DNA from: Mobula hypostoma
Taxonomy: Eukaryota
Direction: 5' to 3'
Length of the DNA: 64,000 nt
Assembly: GCF_963921235.1 (NCBI RefSeq)
Contig: NC_086097.1
Coordinates: forward strand, 7,130,001 to 7,194,000
Shown: piece by piece, positions 1 through 30,375 of the stretch
Numbering within the stretch: the stretch's first letter is position 1
How the letters are laid out: every line of letters begins with the position of its first letter
The notes under the pieces: model-generated
Database searches by the model: none
Told to the model about the DNA's origin: nothing
Seen by the model: the letters and a program-made list of their open reading frames with translations, nothing else
Program-made: the position numbers and the translations under genes

Positions 1-1408
1 GCATGAGTATTCACCCCCTTCAAGTCAGTATTTTGTAGATGCACCTTTGGTGGAAATAACAACCTTGAGACTGTGTGGATAGGTCTCTATCAGCTTTGCA
101 CATCTGGACGCTGCAATTTTTCCCATTCTTCTTTACAAAACTGTTCAGGCTCTGTCAGACAGCTTGGGGATCATGGATGAACAGCCTTTTTCAAATCCAG
201 CCACAAATTCTCAATTGGATTGAGGTCTGAATTTTGACTTAGCTACCGCAGGACATTAACTTTGAAGTTTTTAAGCCATTCTCCTGTAGCTTTAGCCTTA
301 TGCTTGGGGTCATTGTCTAGAAAACAAATCTCCCAAGTCACATTTTTCTTGCAGACTGCATCAGGCTTTCCTCCAGGATTTCCCTGTATTTTGCTGCATT
401 CTTTTTACTCTCAGCTTTCACAAGCCTTCCAGGGACTGTTGCAGTGAAGCATCCCCACAGCATGATGCAGCCAACACAGTGCTTCATGGAAGGGATGGTG
501 TGTTTTTGATGATGTTCAGTTTTTGGCTTACACCAAACATAGCCTTTAGTCTGATGGCCAAAGAGCTCAATTTTGGTTTCAACAGACCATAGAACCTTCT
601 TCCAGCTGATTTCAGAGTCTCCCACATGCCTTCTGGCAAGCTCTAGCTGAGATTTCATGTGAGCTTTTTTCAAAGGTGGCTTTGTTTTTGCCACTGTTCC
701 ATAAGGCACCGACTGGTGAAACAGCTGGGCAACCTTTGTCGTATGTGCAGTTGTTCGAATCTCAGCCACTGAAGCTTGTAACTCCTCCAGAATTGTCATA
801 TTGTTTTTGTGGCCTCCCTCACTAGTGTCCTTCTTGCAAGGTTTTTGAGGACCACCTGCTCTGGGCAGATTTACAGCTGTGTCATATTCTTTCCATTTCT
901 TGATGATTGACTTAACTGTACTCCAAGAGATATTCAGTGACTTGGAAATTTTTTTGTATCTATCTCCTGACTTGTGCTTTTCAATAACCTTTTCACAGAG
1001 TTGCTTGGAGTTTTCTTTTGTTTTCATAGTGCAGTTTTTGCTAGGGTACTGACCGACCAGCAGCTGGACCTTCCAGATACCTGTGTATTTTTACTACAAT
1101 CGATTGAAACACCTTGATCGCACTTACTGATCTCCATTTACCTAATTATGTGACTTCTCAAACCAGTGATGATTTGGTGTGTCATATTAAAGGGGGTGAA
1201 TACTTATGCAATCAATTATTTTGTGTTTTATATTTATAATTAATTTAGATCACTTTGTACAGATTTATTTTCACTTTAACATGAAAGAGTCTTTTTCTGT
1301 TTAGTGTCAAAAAAGCCAAATTAAATCCATTGTGATTCAATGTTGTAAAACAATAGAACATGAAAACTTCCAGGGGGGTGGGGAAGGTGAATATTTTTAT
1401 AGGCACTG
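1..1408 (-). mobile_element. Tc1/mariner DNA transposon (IR/DR type), defective; left TIR runs off the window
   Basis: Transposase ORF 338..1027(-) has the Tc1 HTH region and WSVETKIELF / MLWGCF motifs. The remainder is frameshifted (DNDPKH...SDLNPIENLW near 190-320). 1-18 GCATGAGTATTCACCCCC is the inverted copy of 1192-1209. The outer repeat ends ...GGCACTG at 1408. Confidence 0.92.
338..1027 (-). pseudogene. Tc1-like DD34E transposase, truncated by stop/frameshift; first catalytic Asp replaced (WSVETK)
   Basis: Translated ORF track; the canonical motif is WSDETK. Confidence 0.88.
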
Positions 1409-2179
1409 TGAATAAATTTGGAGTGGTGGCAGGGGAGGAGGTGGAGTGAAACTGGTAAACAATCATCTTTGAAAGAAATCAAGGTGAGATGTTTGTCCAA
1501 AAACAAGAACACCTTAAGGTTTTACATAGACATGTTTGCATAGCAAATAGGACAAAATGGAGAATTCTTATGACCAGCAGACCATGCATTAAATTCAGTA
1601 TAGATTCTCCAACTGGCTGTGAAAGGCAAATTGCCTCGCAATTAGATTCTAGCAGCTTAATAACAGAGGTTTCAAAGGCCTGATCACCAGCAGGCATATT
1701 AGATTACCAGTAGTACTGTTGTGACAGTTGCTATGTATAGGGGGATGTTTTCATAGAGGCAGGAAGCTATCAAAGACAAAACTGCTCTCCTGTTTTTTGT
1801 CAGGCGAAATCTGACTCAGCATAAAAGAATAAAGCAGGAATTATTGATCTCATCTGCAGATGGCACAGGAATTTCTAATTTTGTTCTTCTATTGACTTAT
1901 CATCAGCTTTTCTGAGAGATAACATCTCACTGCTTTGAGTAGATTTCAGTATTGTCTGCACTCTGAGTGGTCAAACCAGTTCAGTCTGAACCTGCTTCAT
2001 TCTTATAAAAACATTTAAAATGCAGCTTGCACAAATATTCCCTTGAAGGCTGTGTGTAGGGGCGATATTATTCCCTAAAAGGATGAGCAGCATTCTATAT
2101 CTCCTGTCAATCAAACCGAACGCTCAGATTCCTCTGACTGACCAAGAATAAACTTAGTTAATATGAAACTGTATTCGGT

Positions 2180-2708
2180 ATGGTGTTTGTCCATTGTATC
2201 CAATGATGACAGGAAATCTGTGCAGCAGAGGTTTTAAACTAGGAAAACCATTGCACTGGGGCAATTTCACTCTCTCAATCTTGGAAGTCCAGGTCCAGAG
2301 GTACAAACAAGTGTCACAAACTGGAGTCTTCTTAGGTTGCAGTGGATGACCATGAGGTCTTCTATTCCTTGTCATGTCCTTTGCTCCCGCACAGTATTGC
2401 AGAACTGTTTTCCTGGCCGTTGGATCTCGCTGTAGATCTCATTCTCTGAGTCCACCAGAGCTGACTTCACATGCTAGGACAGGCATGTCCCTATCTTACC
2501 GGGGTACGATACATGCTGGTTACCCTCACCTGGTTTGATCTGGCTGTTGGGGTTCTGTTCTGGGGTGTAGCTGTTGTCACATGCAAACAGCTACTTGGAG
2601 CCACAGGTGAGAGCTGAGTATACGGTGGGGACCAAAGGTGAGCCAGCTGCTTCAGTTTGGACATGACAAGCCCCTACATCAGAGGCACTACCCCTCCCCG
2701 AACACCCC
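2180..2708 (-). mobile_element. Older, diverged copy of the RTE-derived non-autonomous element at 9745-10310
   Basis: Shares blocks TACCCTCACCTGGTTT, GGGGTGT, CATGCAAACAGCTAC, GGAGCCACAGGTGAGAGCTGAGT, GGTGGGGACCAAAGGTG and terminal ACACCCC with 10115-10310. A similar tail lies near 2185-2210. Confidence 0.75.
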
Positions 2709-2759: not shown

Positions 2760-5700
2760 GGGGATGGGAACCAGTATGACAGAGCTGAGGATGAATCAGC
2801 AGGTTTACAAGTAGATGATGGGTGTAACATGAATGTAAGGAAGGGCAAGCCAATGACTGGATATAAATGCAGACAGAGCAAAGAGTTAAATTGTACCAGA
2901 GAGCCAAAATTCAAAAGGGCAACAAATGCTGAACTGTAGGTGCTGTATTTAAATGCACATGGCATTTGGAATAAGGTGGAAGAACTCGTGGCGTAATTAG
3001 AGATTGGTCGGTATGACATTGTGGGCATCACTGAGTCGTGGCTGAAAGAAGGCCATAGATGGGAACTTAACATCAAAGGATATACTTTGTATCGAGAGGA
3101 CAAGAAGGAAGGCATAGGTGGTGGAATGGCTCTTTTGGTAAGAAATGGAATTACAGCATATCTTTAGAAATAGGTGACAGAGGCTCACTGTAGGCTTTCT
3201 ATTATGGGAATCATATATAGGCCTCCAAATAGTAGCCAAGATGTGGGGCTCAGATTGCAAAAGGAGCTGGAAAAGGCTCAGATTGCAAAAGGAGCTGAAT
3301 AAGGGTAATTGTAATGGGGGACTTCACCAACCTTTGAGAGGTTTTTCATGACTAGACTGAACTCCTGCCTAAGCAAGGACCTAGATCCATTGCAATTCAC
3401 CTATCACCACAATAGGTCAATGGTAGATACAATCTCGATAGCTCTTCACACGGCTTTAGACCACCTGGACAACACCAACACCTATGACAGGATGCTGTCC
3501 ATCAACTATAGTTCAGTATTTAAAACCATCATTCCCACCATCCTGATTGAGAAGTGGCAGAACTTGGGCCTCTGTACCTCCCTCCGCAACTAAATCCTCG
3601 ACTTCCTAACTGGAAGAGCACAATCTGTGCAGATTAGTGATAACATCTTCTCCTTGCTGACAATCAGCTCTGGTGCACCTCAGGGGTGTGTGCTTAGCCC
3701 ACTGCTCTACTTTCTATATACCTATGACTGTGTGGCTAGGCATAGCTAAATACCATCTACAAATTTGCTGTTGACACAACCATTGCTGGTAGAACCTCAA
3801 GTGGAGACGAGAGGGCGTACAGGAGCAAAATATGCCAACTAGTGGAGTTGTGTCGCAGCAACAAACTGGCACTAAACATCAATAAGACAAAAGAACTGAT
3901 TGTGGACTTCCAGAAGGGTAAGATGAGGGAACACATACCAATCCTCATAAAGGGATCAGAAGTGGAGAGAGTGAACAGTTTCAAGTTCCTGGGTGTCAAG
4001 ATCTCTGAGAATCTAACCTGGTCCCAAGATATCGATGCAGTTATAAAGAAGACAAGACAGCGGCCATACTTCATTAGGAGTTTGAAGAGATTTGGTATGT
4101 CAACAAATACATACAAAAACTTTTATAGATGTACTGTGGAGTACATTCTGACAGGTGCATCACTGCCTGGTATGGAGGGGGTGGGGGAGGTGGCTACTGC
4201 ACAGCACCGATAGAAACTGCAGAGGATTGTAAATATATTCGGCTCCATCTTGGGTACTAGCCTACAAAGCACCCAGGACACCCTGAAGGAGCAGTGTCTC
4301 AGAAAGGCAGCGTCCATTATTAAGGACCTCACTTTATTAATATATATTATTTCATTATTTCTGTTTTTTTGCACAATTGTTAATCTATTCAAAATACATA
4401 TACTGTAATTGATTTACTTGTTTTTTTTCTTCTATATTATGTATTGCATTGAACTGCTGCTGCTAAGTTAACAAATTTCACGTCACATGCTGAGGATAAT
4501 AAACCTGATTCTGATTCTGATTCTGAAATGCAAGGGGTTTGGGAAAATTAGATTGATGTCGGATCACAGGAGAGGTAATTTTTTGAGTGCCCACGAAATG
4601 GTTTTTTAGAGCAGCTTGTGCCTACTCCTGGAAAGGCTGTCTTTGACTGGGTCTTATGTAATAACCCAAATCTTATTAGAGAGCTTAATGTAAGGGAACC
4701 CTTAGGAGGAAGTGATCATAATATGATTGAATTCATACTGTCATTTGGGAGGGAAAAGCATAACTCACATGGATCAGTGTCACAATGGAATAAAGGGAAT
4801 TACAGAGGCATGATAGAGGAGCTTGCCCAGGTGAATTGGAGGGGAACACTGGCGGGGATGATGGCAGAGCAGAGATGGCTGAAGTTTCTGGGAATATTTC
4901 ACAAGGCACAGGATAGATATGTCCCACAGAGGAAGAAGTTCTCAAATGGCAGGGATAGGCAACCGTGGCTGACAAAGGAAGTTGATTCCATAAAAGCCAA
5001 GGAAAGGACATATAAAGTAAATGTGAGTGGGAAGTTGGATGATTGGGAAGTTTATAAAATCCAATTTTAAAAAGTATATGAAGGGAAAAGATGAAATATG
5101 AGGGCAGACATGCCATTAATATAAAGCAGGTTACTAAAAGTTTTTTTAGTTTAATGATGAGTAAAAGGGAGGTGAGAGTTGATTTTGGACCACTGGAAAA
5201 TGATGCTGGTGAGGTAGTAATGAGGGACAAAGAAATGCAGATGAACTTAATGGGTACTCTGCATCAGCCTTCACTGTGGAAGACACTAACAGTATGCCAG
5301 AGCTCTGTGAGTGTCAGGGAGCAGAAGTGAGAGCCATTGGTATTACAAAGGAAAAAGTGCCAGGTAAACTCAAAGGTCTTAAGGTGGATAAGGCATCTGG
5401 GCCATACGGACAACATCCCAGAGTTCTGAGAGAGGTTTCTTAAGAGACAGCGATGCATTAGTCATGATCTTTCAATACTCATTTGACTCTGGCATGGTCC
5501 GAGAGGAGTGGAAGATTGCAATTGTCAATCCACCCTTTAAGAAGGGAGGAAGACAAAAGAAAGGAAATTATAGGCCAGTTAGCCTCACCTCAGTGATAGG
5601 ACAATTGTTGGAGACTCTTATTAAGGATGAAGTTTTGGTGTACTTGGAGACTAATGATAAAGTAAGTCAAAGCCAGCATGATTTCTGTAATGGGAAATCT

Positions 5701-5767
5701 TGCCTGGCAAATCTGTCAGAGTTCTTCGAGGAAGTAACAAGCAGGGTAGACAAAGGAGAGGCAGTGT
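2760..5767 (+). mobile_element. Degenerate CR1 LINE ORF2 (APE endonuclease to early RT), interrupted by a Rex1-like LINE at 3327-4526
   Basis: GITESW, MGDF, GSDHNMIEF, GNYRPVSLTS and GKSCL motifs in several frames. The CR1 resumes after the inserted element's tail. A 28-bp tandem duplication lies at 3247-3297. Confidence 0.88.
3327..4526 (+). mobile_element. Rex1/Babar-like LINE, 5'-truncated RT and 3' UTR
   Basis: [18 protein letters not shown], LNINKTKELIVDF and FKFLGVKISENLTW motifs; AATAAA followed by a (CTGATT)n tail ending near 4526. Confidence 0.85.
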
Positions 5768-6407
5768 ATGTCCATGAAAGTGGAAAAAGTCCTTGGAAGT
5801 GAGTCCATAGGTTGAGGGAACATTTCAGTGATGGGGCAAGTGGAGTTGAGTGAAGTTATCCCCTTTGGTTCACGAGCCTGATGGTTGAGGGTAATAACTG
5901 TTCCTGAACCCGTTGATGTAAGTCCTGAGGCTCCTGTACTTCCTTCCTGGTGGCAGCATCAAGAAGAGAGCATGACCTGCATGGAAGGAGTCTCTGATGA
6001 TGGATGCTACTTTCCCTCAAGGGTGCTCCAAATAGAAGTGCTCAATGGTGTTGAGAGCTTGACTTGAACTTGAATTTAAACAGGTAATATTTGTGGAAGA
6101 ATCTTTGTGAATTAATGTCAGATCAGGACAAGAGGTTTGGATGCAGTGATCCCAGCCAGCAGATTCAGCATAATTTCTCAGCTTCCATATTCCATATCCC
6201 CATAAATCCCAGGTACCCACATCCTTTGCTAACCACTCTGTCAAGCTGATCTACCACTTTCAGGGATTTATGCAAAAACACATCCAAGCCCTTCTGATCC
6301 TTCATGCCCTTTATAAAGTAATCTATGTTTTCTCTATGTATTCATTCTGTTACTTTTCTACATAAAACTTCATCTGCCAATTACCTATTCATGCAGCCTT
6401 TTAAATA

Positions 6408-9525: not shown

Positions 9526-9744
9526 ACATTAGTTATTGCAGTTACCTGCTTCAAACTTAGAACATAGATCAGTACAGCACAGCACATGAACCAGGCTTTT
9601 GGCCCACAATGTTGTGCTGAACTAATTAAATTAGTAATCAAATGGCTAATTAAAATAATCTCTTCTGCCAAAACAATGTCTATATCTCCTTATTTTCCTC
9701 ACATTTATGTGCCTATGTAAACACCTCTTAAAAGTCTTTAATGT

Positions 9745-10310
9745 TGTTGTTGTTCATCCATCGTTGACATCGATGAGGACCTGGACACCATTATGATGGT
9801 GCCAAGACTAGCGCGTGATCTGGATTTAAGTGAGGGAGAGTTGCGCAGCGTCAGCCTGACTCTCTCTTCCCAATTCCCATCTGGATCCAGTGGCAAGACA
9901 GAGTCTAGACGGCTGGAGATGGGACTAGGCGCAGTGGATGACTGGGACATCTTCTGTGTCTTGTCCTGCTCTACACGTTCCACGACGCTTGCAGAGACCG
10001 CCTTCTTGACCGTTGGACCTTCCATAGGTCTCGTCCGCTCAATCCGCCGGAGTCTGTCTTCACATGCTGGGATAGACAACTCCCTATCTCACCGAGGGTT
10101 TGAGACCCGTCGGCTACCCTCACCTGGTTTAGCCGGCTTGTCGAAGCCGTTGCCCGGGGTGTGGCCGCTGTCGCATGCAAACAGCTACGGGGAGCCACAG
10201 GTGAGAGCTGAGTGCCAGGTGGGGACCAAAGGTGGACTAACCACCCTGAAAAGGATGCGACATGTTCCCCCACCAGAGGTGCTACCCCTCCCTGACACCC
10301 CATACACCCC
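9745..10310 (-). mobile_element. Non-autonomous RTE-derived bipartite retroelement (RTE-like 5' UTR + RTE-like 3' tail), relatively young
   Basis: (CAA)n tail; its 3' end resembles the RTE tail at 29761-29830. CpG-rich. Candidate TSD AATGT (9740-9744 and 10311-10315). No tRNA A/B box and no RT ORF. Confidence 0.8.
10117..10310 (-). ncRNA. Putative HDV-like self-cleaving ribozyme at the 5' end of the RTE-derived element
   Basis: Manual fold on the minus strand: P1 GGGGUGU/ACACCCC, P2 CUCUCACCUG/CAGGUGAGGG, P3 GGC/GCC, L3 UCCCCGU plus an inserted hairpin, P1.1 GG, GCAA, P4 CGGCUU/AAGCCG, J4/2 GCUAA. Confidence 0.72.
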
Positions 10311-10509
10311 AATGTACCTACTTGTTTTATAACAGCTTGTTTGGCAGAGTAAAGCCTGAAATATGAGTTCGTGTAAGGCTGGCCTGCTGTTACAGAGGAT
10401 GTAGCAGATATAATGAAAATGAAAGTTATTTTCATCTTCAGGCAGTCCAGAGGTGGGGTATGTGGTGATGAGGCTGCAATGACTTGAGTAGAAAGATGGT
10501 GGTCTTGTG

Positions 10510-16475: not shown

Positions 16476-17662
16476 AAAGGGCAGACTCCTTGGAGTTTAG
16501 TGGAATGAGGAATGATAATATTGAAACAGAAAAGGAGGCATGTTAGAGTAGATGTAAAGAGGTTTACATCAGTGCGAGCATCCCAATCTCAAACAAGGGA
16601 AGATAGTTACAAGTGGAAGGGATGAGCATTAAATACTGAGAAGCACAGGGATTTCCTTTAGGGGATGGTGACCCTCTACAACTCTCTACTTTGAAACGTT
16701 ATAGAAACTGGATCTCCCCTGGTGCGCGTTCGTAAGACTGGACTCAAGTGTGGATGAACAGCAGGCTCTCTCCCTGTTATGACAGTCACTGGCACGGCTC
16801 AACACTGAGAGCGGCAGATGGCAAGCTCTCGACTTGACCCAGGAGTGCTGGACGGCAGAATCCTCATGAAGAGACTTCAGGCAAGAGGTTAGGCATAGGA
16901 ACACCAAGACAGTCTCGGAGGGATGACGGAGCAACATCACAAGACCAATCATTCTCTATAACACAGTAGGACTCTACTAAAGAGGTAACTAGAGACCCCT
17001 TTAAATAATCATAGAATACAGGAAACCCATACCAGTCACAATTAACTTGATAAGATTAAACCGACAGCACAAGGGCTTAATGGCTCTCGTTATGATAACA
17101 GTTAGTAAATACAGGTGTTCGAGAAACCTGGAAGCCCAATGCTCTACAGCTCGCTGCATAGGCCCACAGGCTCATGACAGGATCACTGGAAGTATTTAAA
17201 GAAAAGGAAGATCAATATTTAATGATCACTGTAATCTCTATCTTAACTTTATCCACGTCCTTTGAATCCCTATTATCACCTGGCAAAAACCTATCCACTA
17301 TTCTACAAGAGATAAGATGTGCTGGAACGTGGGACAACACACTGGAAGAGTTCAGCAGGTCAGGCAGCATCTCTGGTCAGTATGCAGTTTGCATGAAGGG
17401 TCTCAGCCTGAAGTGCCTAACCTGCTTGCTGAGCCCCTCCAGTGTTTTGTGTGTTACGATTCTTTGGCTTGACTTCAATTGCCTTCTGAAGGAGAATTCC
17501 AGAACCTCAGTCTCCTTTGTCCAACATTACTGACTGAATGACATCTCAAATCTAATTCTACATTCCTGTTTTATGAGGTGGAAATGAGCAAGGCCAACAG
17601 GGCTTGGGTGAAGCTTTATTGGCTGATCCCCTGTACGGTGGATACAATGGATTGCAGAAACA

Positions 17663-20600
17663 TTGACATTGGGTGGGAATCAAATTAAAGAGGCTAGGTG
17701 TGAGGAGGTTAGTTCACAACAGAGGGATGGGAACCAGTGCAGAGAGACAGAGGGGTGTAAAGTGAGCGTAGAAGCAAAAAGTACAAAGGGGAAAAGTAAA
17801 AGTGGCAGGCCGACAAATCCAGGGCAAGCATTAAAAAGGGCTAAGAGAGTTGTAAAAGAGCGCCTGAAGGCTTTATGTGTCAATGCAAGGAGCATTCGTA
17901 ATAAGGTGGATGAATTGAAAGTGCAGATTGTTATTAATGATTATGATATAGTTGGGATCACAGAGACATGGCTCCAGGGTGACCAGGGATGGGAGCTCAA
18001 CATTCAGGGATATTCAATATTCAGGAGGGATAGACATGAAGGAAGGGGAGGTGGGGTGGCGTTGCTGGTTAAAGAAGAGATTAACGCAATAGAAAGGAAG
18101 GACATAAGCCGGGAAGATGTGGAATCGATATGTGTAGAGCTGCGTAACACTAAGGGGCAGAAGACGCTGGTGGGAGTTGTGTACAGGCCACCTAACAGTA
18201 GTAGTGAGGTCGGAGATGGTATTAAACAGGAAATTAGAAATGTGTGCAATAAAGGAACAGCAGTTATAATGGGTGACTTCAATCTACATGTAGACTGGGT
18301 GAACCAAATTGGTAAAGGTGCTGAGGAAGAGGATTTCTTGGAATGTATGCGGGATGGTTTTTTGAACCAACATGTCGAGGAACCGACTAGAGAGCAGGCT
18401 ATTCTGGACTGGGTTTTGAGCAATGAGGAAGGGTTAATTAGCGATCTTGTCGTGAGAGGCCCCTTGGGTAAGAGTGACCATAATATGGTGGAATTCTTCA
18501 TTAACATGGAGAGTGACATAGTTAATTCAGAAACAAAGGTTCTGAACTTAAAGAGGGGTAACTTTGAAGGTATGAGTCGTGAATTAGCTAAGATAGACTG
18601 GCAAATGACACTTAAAGGATTGACGGTGGATATGCAATGGCAGGCATTTAAAGGTTGCATGGATGAACTACAACAATTGTTCATCCCAGTTTGGCAAAAG
18701 AATAAATCAAGGAAGGTAGTGCACCCGTGGCTGACAAGAGAAATTAGGGATAGTATCAATTCCAAAGAAGTAGCATACAAATTAGCCAGAGAAAGTGGCT
18801 CACCTGAGGACTGGGAGAAATTCAGAGTTCAGCAGAGGAGGACAAAGGGCTTAATTAGGAAGGGGAAAAAAGATTATGAGAGAAAACTGGCAGAGAACAT
18901 AAAAATGGACTGTAAAAGCTTTTATAGATATGTAAAAAGGAAAAGACTGATAAAGACAAATGTAGGTCCCCTGCAGACAGAAACAGGTGAATTGATTATG
19001 GGGAGCAAGGACATGGCAGACCAATTGAATAATTACTTTGGTTCTGTCTTCACTAAGGAGGACATAAATAATCTTCCAGAAATAGTAAGGGACAGAGGGT
19101 CCAGTGAGATGGAGGAACTGAGTGAAATACATGTTAGTAGGGAAGTGGTGTTAGGTAAATTGAAGGGATTGAAGGCAGATAAATCCCCAGGGCCAGATGG
19201 TCTGCATCCTAGAGTGCTTAAGGAAGTAGCCCAAGAAATAGTGGATGCATTAGTGATAATTTTTCAAAACTCGTTAGATTCTGGACTAGTTCCTGAGGAT
19301 TGGAGGGTGGCTAATGTAACCCCACTTTTTAAAAAAGGAGGGAGAGAGAAACCGGGGAATTATAGGCCGGTTAGCCTAACGTCGGTGGTGGGGAAACTGC
19401 TGGAGTCAGTTATCAAGGATGTGATAACAGCACATTTGGAAAGCGGTGAAATGATCGGACAAAGTCAGCATGGATTTGTGAAAGGAAAATCATGTCTGAC
19501 GAATCTCATAGAATTTTTTGAGGATGTAACTAGTAGAGTGGATAGGGGAGAACCAGTGGATGTGGTATATTTGGATTTTCAAAAGGCTTTTGACAAGGTC
19601 CCACGCAGGAGATTAGTGTGCAAACTTAAAGCACACGGTATTGGGGGTAAGGTATTGGTGTGGGTGGAGAATTGGTTAGCAGACAGGAAGCAAAGAGTGG
19701 GAATAAACGGGACCTTTTCAGAATGGCAGGCGGTGACTAGTGGGGTACCGCAAGGCTCAGTGCTGGGACCCCAGTTGTTTACAATATATATTAATGACTT
19801 GGATGAGGGAATTAAATGCAGCATCTCCAAGTTTGCGGATGACACGAAGCTGGGTGGCAGTGTTAGCAGTGAGGAGGATGCTAAGAGGATGCAGGGTGAC
19901 TTGGATAGGTTGGGTGAGTGGGCAAACTCATGGCAGATGCAATTTAATGTGGATAAATGTGAAGTTGTCCACTTTGGTGGCAAAAATAGGAAAACAGATT
20001 ATTATCTGAATGGTGGCCAATTAGGAAAAGGGGAGGTGCAACGAGACCTGGGTGTCATTATACACCAGTCATTGAAAGTGGGCATGCAGGTACAGCAGGC
20101 GGTGAAAAAGGCGAACGGTATGCTGGCATTTATAGCGAGAGGATTTGAGTACAGGAGCAGGGAGGTACTACTGCAGTTGTACAAGGCCTTGGTGAGACCA
20201 CACCTGGAGTATTGTGTGCAGTTTTGGTCCCCTAATCTGAGGAAAGACATCTTTGCCATAGAGGGAGTACAAAGAAGGTTCACCAGATTGATTCCTGGGA
20301 TGGCAGGTCTTTCATATGAAGAAAGACTGGATGAACTGGGCTTGTACTCGTTGGAATTTAGAAGATTGAGGGGGGATCTGATTGAAACGTATAAGATCCT
20401 AAAGGGATTGGACAGGCTAGATGCGGGAAGATTGTTCCCGATTTTGGGGAGGTCCAGAACGAGGGGTCACAGTTTGAGGATAGAGGGGAAGCCTTTTAGG
20501 ACCGAGATTAGGAAAAACTTCTTCACACAGAGAGTGGTGAATCTGTGGAATTCTCTGCCACAGCAAACTGTTGAGGCCGGTTCATTGGCTGTGTTTAAGA

Positions 20601-20665
20601 GGAAGTTAGATATGGCCCTTGTGGCTACAGGGGTCAGGGGGTATGGAGGGAAGGCTGGGTTCTGA
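17663..20665 (+). CDS. CR1 ORF2p: APE endonuclease + reverse transcriptase (about 1000 open codons; the tracked start is TTG, not ATG)
   Basis: APE motifs NARS, GITETW, VYRPP, MGDFN and SDH. RT motifs NYRPVSLTS, YLDFQKAFDKV, GVPQGSVLGP, KFADD and DLGV. Confidence 0.93.
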   Translation: MTLGGNQIKEARCEEVSSQQRDGNQCRETEGCKVSVEAKSTKGKSKSGRPTNPGQALKRAKRVVKERLKALCVNARSIRNKVDELKVQIVINDYDIVGITETWLQGDQGWELNIQGYSIFRRDRHEGRGGGVALLVKEEINAIERKDISREDVESICVELRNTKGQKTLVGVVYRPPNSSSEVGDGIKQEIRNVCNKGTAVIMGDFNLHVDWVNQIGKGAEEEDFLECMRDGFLNQHVEEPTREQAILDWVLSNEEGLISDLVVRGPLGKSDHNMVEFFINMESDIVNSETKVLNLKRGNFEGMSRELAKIDWQMTLKGLTVDMQWQAFKGCMDELQQLFIPVWQKNKSRKVVHPWLTREIRDSINSKEVAYKLARESGSPEDWEKFRVQQRRTKGLIRKGKKDYERKLAENIKMDCKSFYRYVKRKRLIKTNVGPLQTETGELIMGSKDMADQLNNYFGSVFTKEDINNLPEIVRDRGSSEMEELSEIHVSREVVLGKLKGLKADKSPGPDGLHPRVLKEVAQEIVDALVIIFQNSLDSGLVPEDWRVANVTPLFKKGGREKPGNYRPVSLTSVVGKLLESVIKDVITAHLESGEMIGQSQHGFVKGKSCLTNLIEFFEDVTSRVDRGEPVDVVYLDFQKAFDKVPRRRLVCKLKAHGIGGKVLVWVENWLADRKQRVGINGTFSEWQAVTSGVPQGSVLGPQLFTIYINDLDEGIKCSISKFADDTKLGGSVSSEEDAKRMQGDLDRLGEWANSWQMQFNVDKCEVVHFGGKNRKTDYYLNGGQLGKGEVQRDLGVIIHQSLKVGMQVQQAVKKANGMLAFIARGFEYRSREVLLQLYKALVRPHLEYCVQFWSPNLRKDIFAIEGVQRRFTRLIPGMAGLSYEERLDELGLYSLEFRRLRGDLIETYKILKGLDRLDAGRLFPILGRSRTRGHSLRIEGKPFRTEIRKNFFTQRVVNLWNSLPQQTVEAGSLAVFKRKLDMALVATGVRGYGGKAGF

Positions 20666-20762
20666 GTTGGATGATCAGCCATGATCATAATAAATGGCGG
20701 TGCAGGCTCGAAGGGCCGAATGGCCTACTCCTGCACCTATTTTCTATGTTTCTATGTTTCTA
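17664..20762 (+). mobile_element. Young 5'-truncated CR1 LINE (ORF2 + 3' UTR, no ORF1)
   Basis: Uninterrupted ORF2 frame, (TTTCTATG)n tail at 20741-20762, candidate TSD AAACAT (17658-17663 and 20763-20768). Confidence 0.95.
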
Positions 20763-29760: not shown

Positions 29761-30375
29761 TTTGTTGTTGTTGTTGTTGTTGTTCGTCCTTCGTAGTCGA
29801 AGATGACCATGGCTTCAAAGTCAAATGGGAGATTGGTGGCTGTGGGTCCGGAGGTGACTGATGAGGCCAATCCGGGCCCTGAAGGCTCACCCACATGTGA
29901 GTGGGTGCTGTCGTGGCAGTGGATGCTGCTCGGGCCTTGTGCACAGCACGCTTTCGTTGCGCCTCGATGATGCGCCTGACTTCAGCTGCACGGGCTCCTG
30001 TGGTGATCTTGCTGTGCCAATCTGGACGGTCGAGGGCAAGCGTCTCCCATGTGTTGATGTCGACACCCAGGCCTTTGAGGGACGCTTTCAGGCAGTCTTT
30101 GTAATGTTTCTTCTCCCCCCCGACTGAGCGCTTGCCCTGACACAGTTCTCCGTATGGCAGCTGCTTAGGCAATTGGCTGTCTGGCATTCTGACCACATGT
30201 CCAGCCCACCTGGCTTGGGCTTTCAGCAGGAGGGTGTAGACGCTGCAGAGCCCAGCTCGTTCCAGGATTTCCGTGTCAGGGACTTTGTCCTGCCACCTGA
30301 TGTGGAGGAGTCTGCGGAGACAGCTCAGGTGAAAATGGTTGAGCTGTTTGGCGTATCTGCTGTAGACAGTCCAGA
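29761..30375 (-). mobile_element. RTE-clade LINE 3' fragment with (CAA)n tail
   Basis: ORF contains CLRRLLHIRWQDKV...RWAGHVVRMPD..LPKQL.YGEL..GKRSVGG; tail (TTG)n on the plus strand at 29761-29784. Confidence 0.88.

What the first reader, a model, noticed from the sequence alone, without database searches (positions are those of the whole stretch)
9745..10310. Ribozyme-headed non-coding retroelement: HDV-like fold with an extra hairpin inserted in L3
Seen: on the minus strand the element starts with GGGGUGU (twice, at 10310 and 10301), which pairs with ACACCCC (10162-10156). That strand is followed directly by GG-GCAA-CGGCUU(CGAC)AAGCCG-GCUAA and then CAGGUGAGGG, which pairs with upstream CUCUCACCUG. 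P3 is GGC/GCC and the loop starts UCCCCGU. Established: this is the P1/P1.1/P2/P3/P4 nested double pseudoknot of HDV-like ribozymes, with the catalytic C at 10132, and such ribozymes occur in the 5' UTRs of R2 and RTE retrotransposons. Unusual: a GCUGU...ACAGC hairpin sits inside L3, J1/2 is about 90 nt with its own stem (GGUGGGG/CCCCACC), and the element has no ORF and no Pol III promoter. Inference: a short retroelement that cuts itself out of host read-through transcripts and borrows the RTE machinery, analogous to R2-derived short internally deleted elements.
Basis: partly seen in the sequence, partly recalled or inferred. Interest (0 to 1): 0.82.

Follow-up and report, generated by a model that had tools for sequence, protein, structure and literature searches.

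The report
Ribozyme-headed short RTE-type retroelement
A very abundant mobile element of about 565 bases in an animal genome starts with a fold matching the self-cutting HDV-type ribozyme, with an unusual extra hairpin, and is a shortened copy of an RTE-like LINE.

Summary
On the minus strand, 10310-10117 can form every helix of an HDV-like ribozyme (P1, P1.1, P2, P3, P4). The J1.1/4 and J4/2 letters are those of known HDV-type cores, with the catalytic C at 10132. A 19-nt hairpin sits between L3 and the 3' strand of P3.

Three sequences could be compared: this copy, a decayed copy at 2708-2149, and metagenome contig L001. They keep the fold, with compensatory changes in P1 (G-C to U-A) and in the J1/2 hairpin. 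A subfamily seen in sequencing contigs has a compensatory change in P4.

The element is a very high-copy repeat: 12,436 contigs matched it in one DNA run. Its 5' edge is sharp and lies at the start of P1. One RNA-seq contig ends exactly at G10310.

L001 shows that the same head is the 5' UTR of a roughly 4.2-kb APE+RT LINE. A truncated copy of that LINE (29761-30373) shares the 3' tail ending in (AAC)n. The element is therefore a bipartite, internally deleted RTE-like derivative, which is a known kind.

Self-cleavage is untested. The L3/P3 hairpin appears new. Rfam reports nothing at its curated thresholds.

The parts
9745..10310 (-). Short non-autonomous element, copy c1 (about 566 nt), flanked by a 5-bp direct repeat ACATT at 10315-10311 and 9744-9740
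   Evidence: In one search, summed depth falls from 277,897 (bin 10274-10299) to 17.3 (10326 onward), and a tandem joint runs 9742 -> 18 nt -> 10311.
10304..10310 (-). P1 5' strand GGGGUGU. The predicted cleavage site is 5' of G10310.
   Evidence: In L001 the aligned strand GUGGUGU pairs with ACACCAC, a compensatory change. An X20 RNA contig ends at 10310 followed by adapter letters.
10208..10303 (-). J1/2 peripheral domain: one long irregular hairpin (P1.2-like). Its base helix is 10300-10291 with 10219-10210 and includes the second GGGGUGU run.
   Evidence: RNAfold gives -44.4 kcal/mol for the domain alone. RNAalifold recovers it. Within this domain 4 pairs have changes on both sides among 3 sequences.
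10198..10207 (-). P2 5' strand CUCUCACCUG
   Evidence: 10 pairs, invariant in 3 of 3 sequences.
10194..10196 (-). P3 5' strand GGC
10187..10193 (-). L3 UCCCCGU. C10192 and C10191 form P1.1 with G10154 and G10155.
   Evidence: Positions 4-5 vary among family members (CC, CA, AA) while UCC stays.
10167..10185 (-). Extra hairpin between L3 and the P3 3' strand: stem GCUGU/ACAGC, loop UUGCAUGCG
   Evidence: The stem is kept in c2 (one mismatch) and in L001, where the loop is shorter and different.
10163..10165 (-). P3 3' strand GCC
10156..10162 (-). P1 3' strand ACACCCC
10150..10155 (-). P1.1 3' strand GG, then J1.1/4 GCAA
   Evidence: The stretch aligns to the consensus of Rfam RF02682.
10134..10149 (-). 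P4 CGGCUU-CGAC-AAGCCG
   Evidence: A subfamily has CCGCUU/AGGCGG, read from the loose-end consensus of 111 and 75 contigs.
10127..10133 (-). J4/2 GCUAAAC with the predicted catalytic C at 10132
   Evidence: Identical in L001 and in the subfamily consensus. Aligns to GGCUAA of RF02682.
10117..10126 (-). P2 3' strand CAGGUGAGGG
9796..10116 (-). Body homologous to the LINE 5' UTR downstream of the ribozyme. It holds a non-conserved 113-codon open frame.
   Evidence: Alignment with L001; ORFs; no Pfam family; no longer homologue.
9745..9795 (-). 3' tail: a LINE-3'UTR-like stretch ending in GAUGG-AUG-(AAC)3-A
   Evidence: 80% identity over 40 nt to 29808-29772, E 0.001; sequences.
2149..2708 (-). 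Second, decayed copy (c2). It has a single GGGGUGU at its 5' edge, L3 UCCAAGU, P4 and P1.1 damaged, and a possible 5-bp repeat TTCTT at both ends.
29761..30373 (-). 5'-truncated copy of the candidate partner LINE: the C-terminal part of the ORF, stop at 29823-29821, a 36-nt 3' UTR, then (AAC)7
   Evidence: tblastn gives 94% identity to P0001 residues 893-1052; sequence; relatives of 1067-1103 aa carry PF03372, PF14529 and PF00078.

Best explanation
The stretch 10310-9745 (minus strand) is one copy of a very abundant, bipartite, non-autonomous derivative of an RTE-like LINE. It consists of about 515 nt of the LINE's 5' UTR joined to about 50 nt of LINE-like 3' end with an (AAC)n tail.

The first ~195 nt fold as an HDV-like self-cleaving ribozyme:
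- P1 10310-10304 with 10162-10156
- P1.1 C10192/C10191 with G10154/G10155
- P2 10207-10198 with 10126-10117
- P3 10196-10194 with 10165-10163
- P4 10149-10134
- general-acid C at 10132
- a large hairpin in J1/2
- an extra hairpin (10185-10167) between L3 and P3

Inferred mechanism:
1. The element is transcribed as part of a longer RNA, or from a promoter of its own.
2. The ribozyme cuts 5' of G10310, so the RNA starts at the element's first base and still carries the ribozyme.
3. The partner LINE's APE+RT protein recognises the shared 3' end and copies the RNA into a new site by target-primed reverse transcription, leaving a short target duplication.

Shown: the fold, its conservation, the copy abundance, the sharp 5' edge and the LINE relationship. 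Inferred: cleavage, the source of transcription and mobilisation in trans.
For: Fold
- All helices are perfect in this copy.
- The strict descriptor finds 1 locus in the window, and finds something in 2 of 40 shuffles.
- RNAalifold, which cannot draw the pseudoknots, independently returns P2, P3, the L3 hairpin, P4 and the J1/2 hairpin.
- When only the 111-nt core is searched, the only Rfam match with E up to 10 is an HDV family (RF02682, 13.2 bits, E 1.8). It aligns GGCAACGG...CCGGCUAA.

Comparison of copies
- L001 has P1 GUGGUGU/ACACCAC against GGGGUGU/ACACCCC here: both sides changed and the pair is kept.
- L3 keeps UCC while positions 4-5 vary.
- The inserted hairpin keeps its stem while its loop differs.
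- GCUAAAC is identical.
- Over 65 proposed pairs, 87.8% of cells pair, against 32-48% when the 3' partners are slid. Six pairs changed on both sides.
- A subfamily consensus from 111 and 75 contigs has P4 CCGCUU/AGGCGG against CGGCUU/AAGCCG here. That is one G-C to C-G swap with GCUAAACC kept (table 7, read as reverse complement).

Mobility and edges
- Contigs matching the stretch: 12,436 in X1, 264 in X16, 30 in X12 and 3 in X20.
- Summed depth is about 2.8-5.2 x 10^5 inside the element against 17.3 in the 5' flank.
- Loose ends lie at 10311 and 10304.
- A tandem joint runs 9742 -> 18 nt -> 10311.
- There are two copies in the window.
- ACATT abuts both ends of this copy.

RNA end
- An X20 RNA-seq contig (depth 11.5) covers 10082-10310. 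It continues into 16 letters that I recognise from memory as an Illumina adapter.

LINE link
- L001 runs on beyond the point where this copy ends.
- At L001 832-891 it encodes the N-terminus of P0007 (60% identity over 20 aa, E 0.002). P0007 is a 1103-aa APE+RT protein from a 4198-nt contig, and the L001 contig is 4197 nt.
- The tail is 80% identical over 40 nt to the LINE 3' end at 29808-29772.

Literature
- Bipartite non-autonomous RTE, Ingi and R2 derivatives, and their possible link to 5' ribozymes, are described in PMC5786205 (passages).
- RTE elements with HDV-like ribozymes are described in PMC6765202 and PMC3774820 (passages).
Against: - No cleavage assay exists.
- Rfam gives nothing at gathering thresholds on the whole window. 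Over 1.1 kb it gives no HDV family at E up to 10. The single weak hit is far below its cut-off (13.2 bits against 44).
- Only 3 full sequences could be compared, so statistics are weak. The count of pairs changed on both sides is reached by 53 of 500 shuffles, and the covariation score by 126 of 500. The structure was also derived from one of the rows.
- Copy c2 has lost P4 and half of P1.1. L001 has a bulged U in P2 and a broken last P4 pair.
- An RNA end at G10310 fits a transcription start as well as a cleavage site. It rests on one contig, and the tool warns that contigs cannot show RNA ends.
- Depth in bin 10300-10325 (46,168) suggests that many copies or alignments stop nearer 10301-10304 than 10310.
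- X16 (guessed to be RNA) has zero depth in the flank at 10326-10400, so nothing shows read-through at this locus.
- The tail match is short.
- Clade placement of the LINE was not tested by a tree.
Confidence: 0.8

Rival explanations
1. The fold is real and inherited, but it no longer cleaves or never needed to. The 5' end would be set by an internal Pol II promoter, as with Pr77 of L1Tc. The structure would serve translation initiation or protein binding in the parent LINE and be carried along passively by the short element.
For: - The RNA contig ending at G10310 fits a transcription start equally well.
- HDV-like ribozymes of R2 and L1Tc are proposed to act like IRESes (PMC6765202, passages).
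- No read-through RNA is seen in the flank in X16.
- An inserted hairpin next to the active-site loop could impair catalysis.
Against: Every core position needed for catalysis is intact in this CpG-rich copy: G at +1, both P1.1 pairs, and C10132 in GCUAA. These positions are kept in L001 and in the subfamily consensus. P1 covaries, and the pairing of P1 matters mainly for cleavage.
Confidence: 0.12
2. The working P1 uses the second GGGGUGU (10301-10295). Cleavage would then be 5' of G10301, and the first run would be a 9-nt 5' duplication made at insertion.
For: - Copy c2 has only one run at its edge.
- Depth in bin 10300-10325 is only about a sixth of the next bin.
- One X12 contig diverges at 10304.
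Against: - In L001 only the first run can pair with the changed 3' strand.
- The second run is part of the predicted J1/2 base helix.
- The X20 RNA contig, three X16 contigs and the tandem joint in X1 all reach 10310/10311.
- The ACATT repeat abuts 10310.
Confidence: 0.15
3. The element is protein-coding: the frame 10079-9738 (113 codons) that runs to the element's last bases would encode a small protein.
For: - The frame is open in this copy.
- By my hand count table 3, 6 of the 11 listed family variants inside it fall on third codon positions and are synonymous.
Against: - The frame is broken in c2 and in L001.
- It has no Pfam family.
- No homologue was found among longer proteins (0 of 646 candidates).
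- The region is the 5' UTR of the LINE.
- Two other long frames overlap the same GC-rich stretch.
- The third-position excess has a binomial p of about 0.12.
Confidence: 0.04
4. The resemblance to the HDV fold is chance, in a GC-rich repeat.
For: - The loose descriptor hits 4 loci in the window.
- Rfam reports nothing at its thresholds.
Against: - The strict descriptor is unique in the window.
- There are compensatory changes in P1, P4 and J1/2.
- The element's edge coincides with the start of P1.
Confidence: 0.03

Closest known systems
HDV-like ribozymes at the 5' ends of RTE retrotransposons (drz-Agam-2 family of Anopheles; Ruminski et al. 2011, recalled, paper not held; Webb et al. 2016, PMC4908430, abstract and passages)
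   Same: A nested double pseudoknot at the first base of an RTE-type element, and a long structured J1/2 (P1.2) domain between P1 and P2.
   Different: - The host is a different animal lineage.
- An extra hairpin lies between L3 and the P3 3' strand.
- No Rfam drz-Agam model matches at E up to 10.
- Activity is untested.
Bipartite non-autonomous LINEs of the RTE clade (Bov-A; the RTE 5'/3' UTR parts of CoeSINE4/5 and WALLSI; Kojima 2018, PMC5786205, passages)
   Same: Only the 5' and 3' parts of the parent LINE are kept, the true 5' end is retained, and there is no RT. That paper itself suggests a link to 5' ribozymes.
   Different: Here the ribozyme is mapped explicitly at the head of both the short element and a full-length relative.
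R2 SIDEs (Eickbush and Eickbush 2012, PMC3414825; search listing only)
   Same: Internal-deletion derivatives that keep the 5' HDV-like ribozyme and the 3' end bound by the RT.
   Different: R2 and its SIDEs insert site-specifically in 28S rDNA and use a restriction-like endonuclease. This element is dispersed, in thousands of contigs, and its partner has an APE endonuclease.
NARTc / L1Tc of Trypanosoma cruzi (PMC3185411 and PMC3383444; search listings)
   Same: A non-autonomous truncated LINE that shares the first ~77 nt, which hold an HDV-like ribozyme.
   Different: These belong to the Ingi clade in a protist. There the ribozyme overlaps a demonstrated internal promoter, and no promoter was tested here.
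Genomic HDV ribozyme and drz-Fpra (Rfam RF02682)
   Same: GG-GCAA before P4 and G-C-N-A-A after it, an L3 of type U-C-C-N-N-G-N, and a 3-bp P3. The comparison with HDV itself is recalled; that with RF02682 is.
   Different: A J1/2 of 96 nt, a 19-nt hairpin inserted where HDV has a single extruded U (recalled), and a J4/2 two letters longer.

Membership tests
HDV-like self-cleaving ribozymes | P1 helix of about 7 bp whose first nucleotide (G) is the cleavage site | tested here: met
   GGGGUGU/ACACCCC gives 7 of 7 pairs. L001 has GUGGUGU/ACACCAC with 7 of 7 pairs, one pair changed on both sides.
HDV-like self-cleaving ribozymes | P1.1: two pairs between L3 positions 2-3 and the two nucleotides after P1 (second pseudoknot) | tested here: met
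   CC with GG in c1 and in L001. One pair is lost in decayed c2, where it reads AG at a CpG site.
HDV-like self-cleaving ribozymes | P2 closing the outer pseudoknot, and a 3-bp P3 directly abutting the P1 3' strand | tested here: met
   P2 has 10 pairs, invariant in 3 of 3 sequences. P3 is GGC/GCC, or GCU in c2.
HDV-like self-cleaving ribozymes | P4 followed by J4/2 with the catalytic C (C-N-R-A) | tested here: met
   A 6-bp P4 followed by G-C10132-U-A-A. It is kept in L001 and in the subfamily consensus, with a compensatory change in P4.
HDV-like self-cleaving ribozymes | Short L3 of 7-8 nt running straight into P3 | tested here: not met
   A 19-nt hairpin (10185-10167) lies between L3 and the P3 3' strand in all 3 sequences. 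This departure defines the variant. A full-text search for such insertions found nothing relevant.
HDV-like self-cleaving ribozymes | Match to a curated covariance model (Rfam HDV, CPEB3, drz-Agam or drz-Fpra families) | tested here: not met
   No match at gathering thresholds. No HDV family at E up to 10 over 1.1 kb. RF02682 scores 13.2 bits against a cut-off of 44 on the core alone.
HDV-like self-cleaving ribozymes | Mg2+-dependent self-scission leaving a 5'-OH product | not testable with these tools
   The only hint is an RNA-seq contig that ends at G10310 next to adapter letters.
Bipartite non-autonomous LINE (SIDE-like) | The 5' part equals the 5' end of an autonomous LINE | tested here: met
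   c1 aligns with L001 from the first base for about 515 nt. L001 then continues into the N-terminus of an APE+RT ORF.
Bipartite non-autonomous LINE (SIDE-like) | The 3' part equals the 3' end of the same LINE | tested here: inconclusive
   80% identity over 40 nt, E 0.001, plus a shared (AAC)n tail with the LINE fragment at 29808-29772. The match is short, and the 3' end of the L001 contig could not be fetched.
Bipartite non-autonomous LINE (SIDE-like) | No RT or endonuclease coding capacity, dispersed copies, target duplications | tested here: met
   No Pfam family in its three ORFs of 110 aa or more. 12,436 contigs matched it in X1. A 5-bp ACATT repeat abuts both ends.
RTE clade of non-LTR retrotransposons (partner LINE) | A single ORF with an N-terminal APE endonuclease and an RT, in an element of about 3-4 kb | tested here: met
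   P0001, P0002 and P0005-P0008 are 1067-1103 aa; 13 of the 15 listed full-length relatives of 1037-1125 aa down to P0029 carry PF03372, PF14529 and PF00078, on contigs of 3.4-4.4 kb.
RTE clade of non-LTR retrotransposons (partner LINE) | A very short 3' UTR ending in short simple repeats (feature recalled from Malik and Eickbush 1998) | tested here: met
   Stop at 29823-29821, a 36-nt UTR, then (AAC)7.
RTE clade of non-LTR retrotransposons (partner LINE) | Placement inside RTE on an RT phylogeny with reference elements | not tested
   No labelled reference RT set was available. The tail differs from the (GATG)n tail of Rex3 (PMC6274825, passages).

The most novel reading that the evidence does not exclude
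This would be an active, undescribed structural subclass of HDV-like ribozymes in which a hairpin is inserted at the L3/P3 junction, beside the active site. It would be present in thousands of copies in several related animal genomes and invisible to Rfam's models at their curated thresholds.

The hairpin loop keeps a self-complementary hexamer whose outer letters stay pairable: GCAUGC here, GCAUGU in c2 and ACAUGU in L001. It could therefore be a kissing-loop or switch that couples RNA-RNA pairing, or a bound protein, to cleavage of the retroelement RNA.
Probability: 0.3. Interest if true: 0.7.

Novelty: new variant of a known kind. Interest (0 to 1): 0.55.

Why it matters
HDV-like ribozymes at the heads of RTE, R2 and L1Tc elements, and bipartite non-autonomous derivatives of such LINEs, are already described. 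The system as a whole is therefore a new member of a known kind.

What is new:
- The ribozyme anatomy. A conserved hairpin is inserted between L3 and P3, right beside the catalytic pocket, in addition to a P1.2-like J1/2 domain.
- The scale. It is a very high-copy family spread over several related host species.

If the ribozyme is active, it shows that the HDV core tolerates an insertion at a position that motif searches hold fixed. Descriptor and covariance searches would then be missing a whole branch of the family. It would also give the idea in PMC5786205 a concrete, testable case: that 5' ribozymes explain why RTE, Ingi and R2 spawn bipartite derivatives.

Tried and rejected
- The whole genome of the window is not held, so no genome-wide copy census or covariance model could be made.
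- Pattern scans for more copies found 0 in viral contigs and 0 in genome contigs with two patterns. They found 1 locus in metagenome contigs.
- The rest of the L001 contig could not be fetched.
- A protein-based scan of viral contigs with P0007 found no relative.
- nhmmer with the three-sequence profile found only the two known copies in the window.
- The protein search with the 113-codon frame covered longer proteins only and found none. Proteins of similar length were not searched.
- The earlier-findings index had nothing by sequence, words or place.
- Ruminski et al. 2011 could not be read. Its content is recalled or taken from papers that cite it.
- An alternative fold, with the GCUGU/ACAGC stem as P3 and its loop as L3, was rejected. 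It gives no P1.1 partner for GG and leaves 4 nt between P3 and P1.
- A tRNA-type head was rejected (ARAGORN found 0 genes). Other Pol III promoter types were not tested.
- Parts of the stretch without cover in X12, X16 and X20 are not evidence of absence.
- Summed contig depth is not a copy number, so 'thousands of copies' is a rough reading.
- Only 26 of the 63 ORFs of 110 aa or more in the window were scanned against Pfam.
Full report
**What is in the sequence**

Read on the minus strand, the stretch from 10310 downward contains, in the order an HDV-like ribozyme requires:
- GGGGUGU (10310-10304), repeated at 10301-10295
- a 96-nt linker
- CUCUCACCUG (10207-10198), then U
- GGC (10196-10194)
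- UCCCCGU (10193-10187), then A
- a hairpin GCUGU-UUGCAUGCG-ACAGC (10185-10167), then G
- GCC (10165-10163)
- ACACCCC (10162-10156)
- GG, then GCAA
- CGGCUU-CGAC-AAGCCG (10149-10134)
- GCUAAAC (10133-10127)
- CAGGUGAGGG (10126-10117)

A script check shows that every proposed helix pairs fully in this copy: P1 7 of 7, P2 10 of 10 with one G-U, P3 3 of 3, P1.1 2 of 2, P4 6 of 6 and the inserted hairpin 5 of 5.

**Is it more than chance?**

- A loose HDV descriptor is not specific. It hits 4 loci on the minus strand of the window.
- A strict descriptor, written after seeing the site, finds only this locus. It finds something in 2 of 40 dinucleotide shuffles.
- Rfam gives nothing at gathering thresholds on the whole window, and no HDV family at E up to 10 over 1.1 kb.
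- When only the 111-nt core is searched, the single match among 4227 families is an HDV family: RF02682, 13.2 bits against a cut-off of 44, E 1.8. It aligns GGCAACGG...CCGGCUAA to the consensus.
- Covariance models cannot represent the pseudoknots, and here they also face a 96-nt J1/2 and the extra hairpin. The miss is therefore weak evidence against the fold.

**Comparative evidence**

The window holds a second, decayed copy on the same strand at about 2708-2149 (73% identity over 323 nt). One metagenome contig, L001, carries a third sequence. No other source gave copies.

What the three sequences show:
- P1: in L001 it is GUGGUGU/ACACCAC, against GGGGUGU/ACACCCC here. One pair has changed on both sides and is still a pair.
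- Only the first of the two runs can pair in L001. The first run is therefore the likelier P1, and cleavage would fall at the element's first base.
- L3 keeps UCC (the P1.1 partners), while positions 4-5 read CC, CA or AA.
- The inserted hairpin keeps its stem, while its loop changes in length and letters.
- GCUAAAC is identical in L001.

On the three-row alignment:
- 87.8% of cells pair, against 32-48% when the 3' partners are slid.
- 6 of 65 pairs changed on both sides, four of them in the J1/2 hairpin.
- With three rows the shuffle control is not impressive (53 of 500 shuffles reach the count), and the structure was derived from one of the rows.
- RNAalifold independently returns P2, P3, the L3 hairpin, P4 and the long J1/2 hairpin.

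**Evidence from sequencing runs**

Twenty of the 24 listed runs, from 10 studies and several coded organisms, hold part of the stretch.

- Contigs matching 9650-10400: 12,436 in X1 (DNA), 264 in X16, 30 in X12 and 3 in X20.
- Summed depth is 2.3-5.2 x 10^5 across most of the element (bins 9806-10299, apart from 1.7 x 10^5 in bin 10248-10273) and 17.3 in the 5' flank from 10326. The fall lies inside bin 10300-10325. The tool warns that this is not a copy number, but it marks a very high-copy repeat with a sharp 5' edge.
- Loose ends lie at 10311 (3 contigs in X16, 1 in X20) and 10304 (X12).
- One X1 contig joins 9742 to 10311 across 18 other letters. That is two elements in tandem, which marks both ends.
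- The listed variants at paired positions keep pairing. These are 10138, 10167 and 10215 on the plus strand, which on the RNA read A to G, C to U and G to A.
- L3 positions 4-5 read AA in 17% of X1 depth and in most of X12 and X16.
- The loose-end consensus of 111 and 75 X1 contigs, read as reverse complement, gives a subfamily with P4 CCGCUU/AGGCGG in place of CGGCUU/AAGCCG. That is one G-C to C-G swap and one U-A to U-G change, still followed by GCUAAACC.
- In X20, a labelled RNA-seq run of another organism, a contig of depth 11.5 covers 10082-10310. It then runs into 16 letters that I recognise from memory as the end of an Illumina adapter. The apparent match at 10311 is the adapter's last base. 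This is a hint of a discrete RNA end at the predicted cleavage site, and no more than that.

**What the element is**

Copy c1 and L001 align from the first base for about 515 nt. L001 then runs on where c1 switches to its tail.

- L001 832-891 encodes 20 residues matching the N-terminus of P0007 (60% identity, E 0.002). P0007 is a 1103-aa protein with APE and RT domains from a 4198-nt contig, and the L001 contig is 4197 nt. The ribozyme therefore heads a LINE of about 4.1 kb with a 5' UTR of about 750 nt.
- The window holds a 5'-truncated copy of that LINE at 30373-29761 on the minus strand. It is 94% identical to P0001 residues 893-1052. Its ORF stops at 29823-29821 and is followed by a 36-nt UTR and (AAC)7.
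- The last 40 nt of c1 are 80% identical to that 3' end (E 0.001). They end in (AAC)3-A, followed by ACATT, which also precedes G10310.
- The element has no tRNA-like head and no Pfam family in its frames.
- Its 113-codon frame is broken in c2 and L001 and has no longer homologue.

The element is thus a bipartite, internally deleted, non-autonomous derivative of an RTE-like LINE. The LINE is called RTE-like from its architecture: a single APE+RT ORF, about 4 kb in length, and a very short 3' UTR with a trinucleotide tail. This is not based on a tree.

**How it most likely works**

1. The element is transcribed within a longer RNA, or from a promoter of its own. This is inferred; nothing here shows which.
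2. The ribozyme folds. P1 and P1.1 stack on P4, P2 stacks on P3, and the J1/2 hairpin holds the outer ends of P1 and P2 together, as shown for mosquito RTE ribozymes (PMC4908430).
3. C10132 would catalyse scission 5' of G10310. This is inferred from homology of the core.
4. The RNA keeps the ribozyme. Its 3' end is used by the partner LINE's protein for target-primed reverse transcription. This is inferred from the shared tail and the short target repeat.

The role of the inserted hairpin is open. Its loop hexamer stays self-complementary, or its outer letters stay pairable, in all three sequences (G..C, G..U, A..U). That fits either one more intramolecular pair closing CAUG or a kissing loop.

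**Comparison with what is known**

- HDV-like ribozymes at the 5' ends of RTE, R2, R4, L1Tc and other LINEs are established (PMC3774820 and PMC6765202, passages; Ruminski 2011 recalled, not held).
- Bipartite non-autonomous derivatives of RTE, Ingi and R2, and their possible link with 5' ribozymes, are discussed in PMC5786205 (passages).
- R2 SIDEs and NARTc are the worked examples (PMC3414825 and PMC3383444, listings).
- The long structured J1/2 is also known (PMC4908430).
- I did not find a hairpin inserted between L3 and P3. A full-text search for such terms returned nothing relevant, and searches pairing HDV-like ribozymes with fish-type RTE elements found no such report. Subscription papers, Repbase and Dfam were not searchable.

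**Verdict**

The system is a new member of a known kind, and its ribozyme is a new structural variant. Catalysis, the choice between the two P1 registers and the source of transcription remain to be tested.

Noticed in passing
window 17627-20665 (+), 3' end near 20700-20760: An uninterrupted 1012-codon LINE ORF with APE and RT domains (RVT_1 E 3.9e-33). It is followed by a GC-rich inverted repeat and two TTTCTATG units. This is a CR1-like element unrelated to the finding, and possibly a young copy.
   Followed up: partly
window 338-1090 (-): A frame with a Sleeping Beauty-type HTH domain (PF25787, E 1.7e-15), which is a Tc1/mariner transposase remnant.
   Followed up: no
window 9562-9727: A different repeat directly 3' of the element. 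Summed depth is 4-10 thousand in X1, with a shared loose end at 9692. It gives a weak mir-2187-like hairpin match at 9562-9629 on the minus strand (24.5 bits against a cut-off of 67, E 0.1).
   Followed up: no
window 10079-9738 (-): A 113-codon open frame runs from just behind the ribozyme to the element's end and finishes ...DEQQQH, read across the (AAC)n tail. By hand count, 6 of the 11 listed family variants in it are synonymous third-position changes. It is broken in the other two sequences, so it is probably chance.
   Followed up: partly
proteins P0032-P0120: The named relatives of the RTE-like LINE protein (50-59% identity over the C-terminal part) come from tapeworms (Sparganum, Spirometra), a shrimp, a lancelet and a medaka. 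This patchy spread would fit the horizontal transfer known for RTE/BovB elements.
   Followed up: no
window 3746-4213 (+) and 5392-5802 (+): Further LINE fragments: an ALKBH8_N-like C-terminal motif (E 8e-6) and a weak RVT_1 match. tblastn with P0001 gives only 34% identity at 5458-5649, so these belong to another LINE family.
   Followed up: no
window 10301-10295 vs 10310-10304; copy c2 at 2708: The P1 5' strand is duplicated 9 nt apart in this copy and in L001, where the second run is degenerate. It is single in copy c2. Two cleavage registers or a 9-nt 5' heterogeneity among copies are possible.
   Followed up: partly
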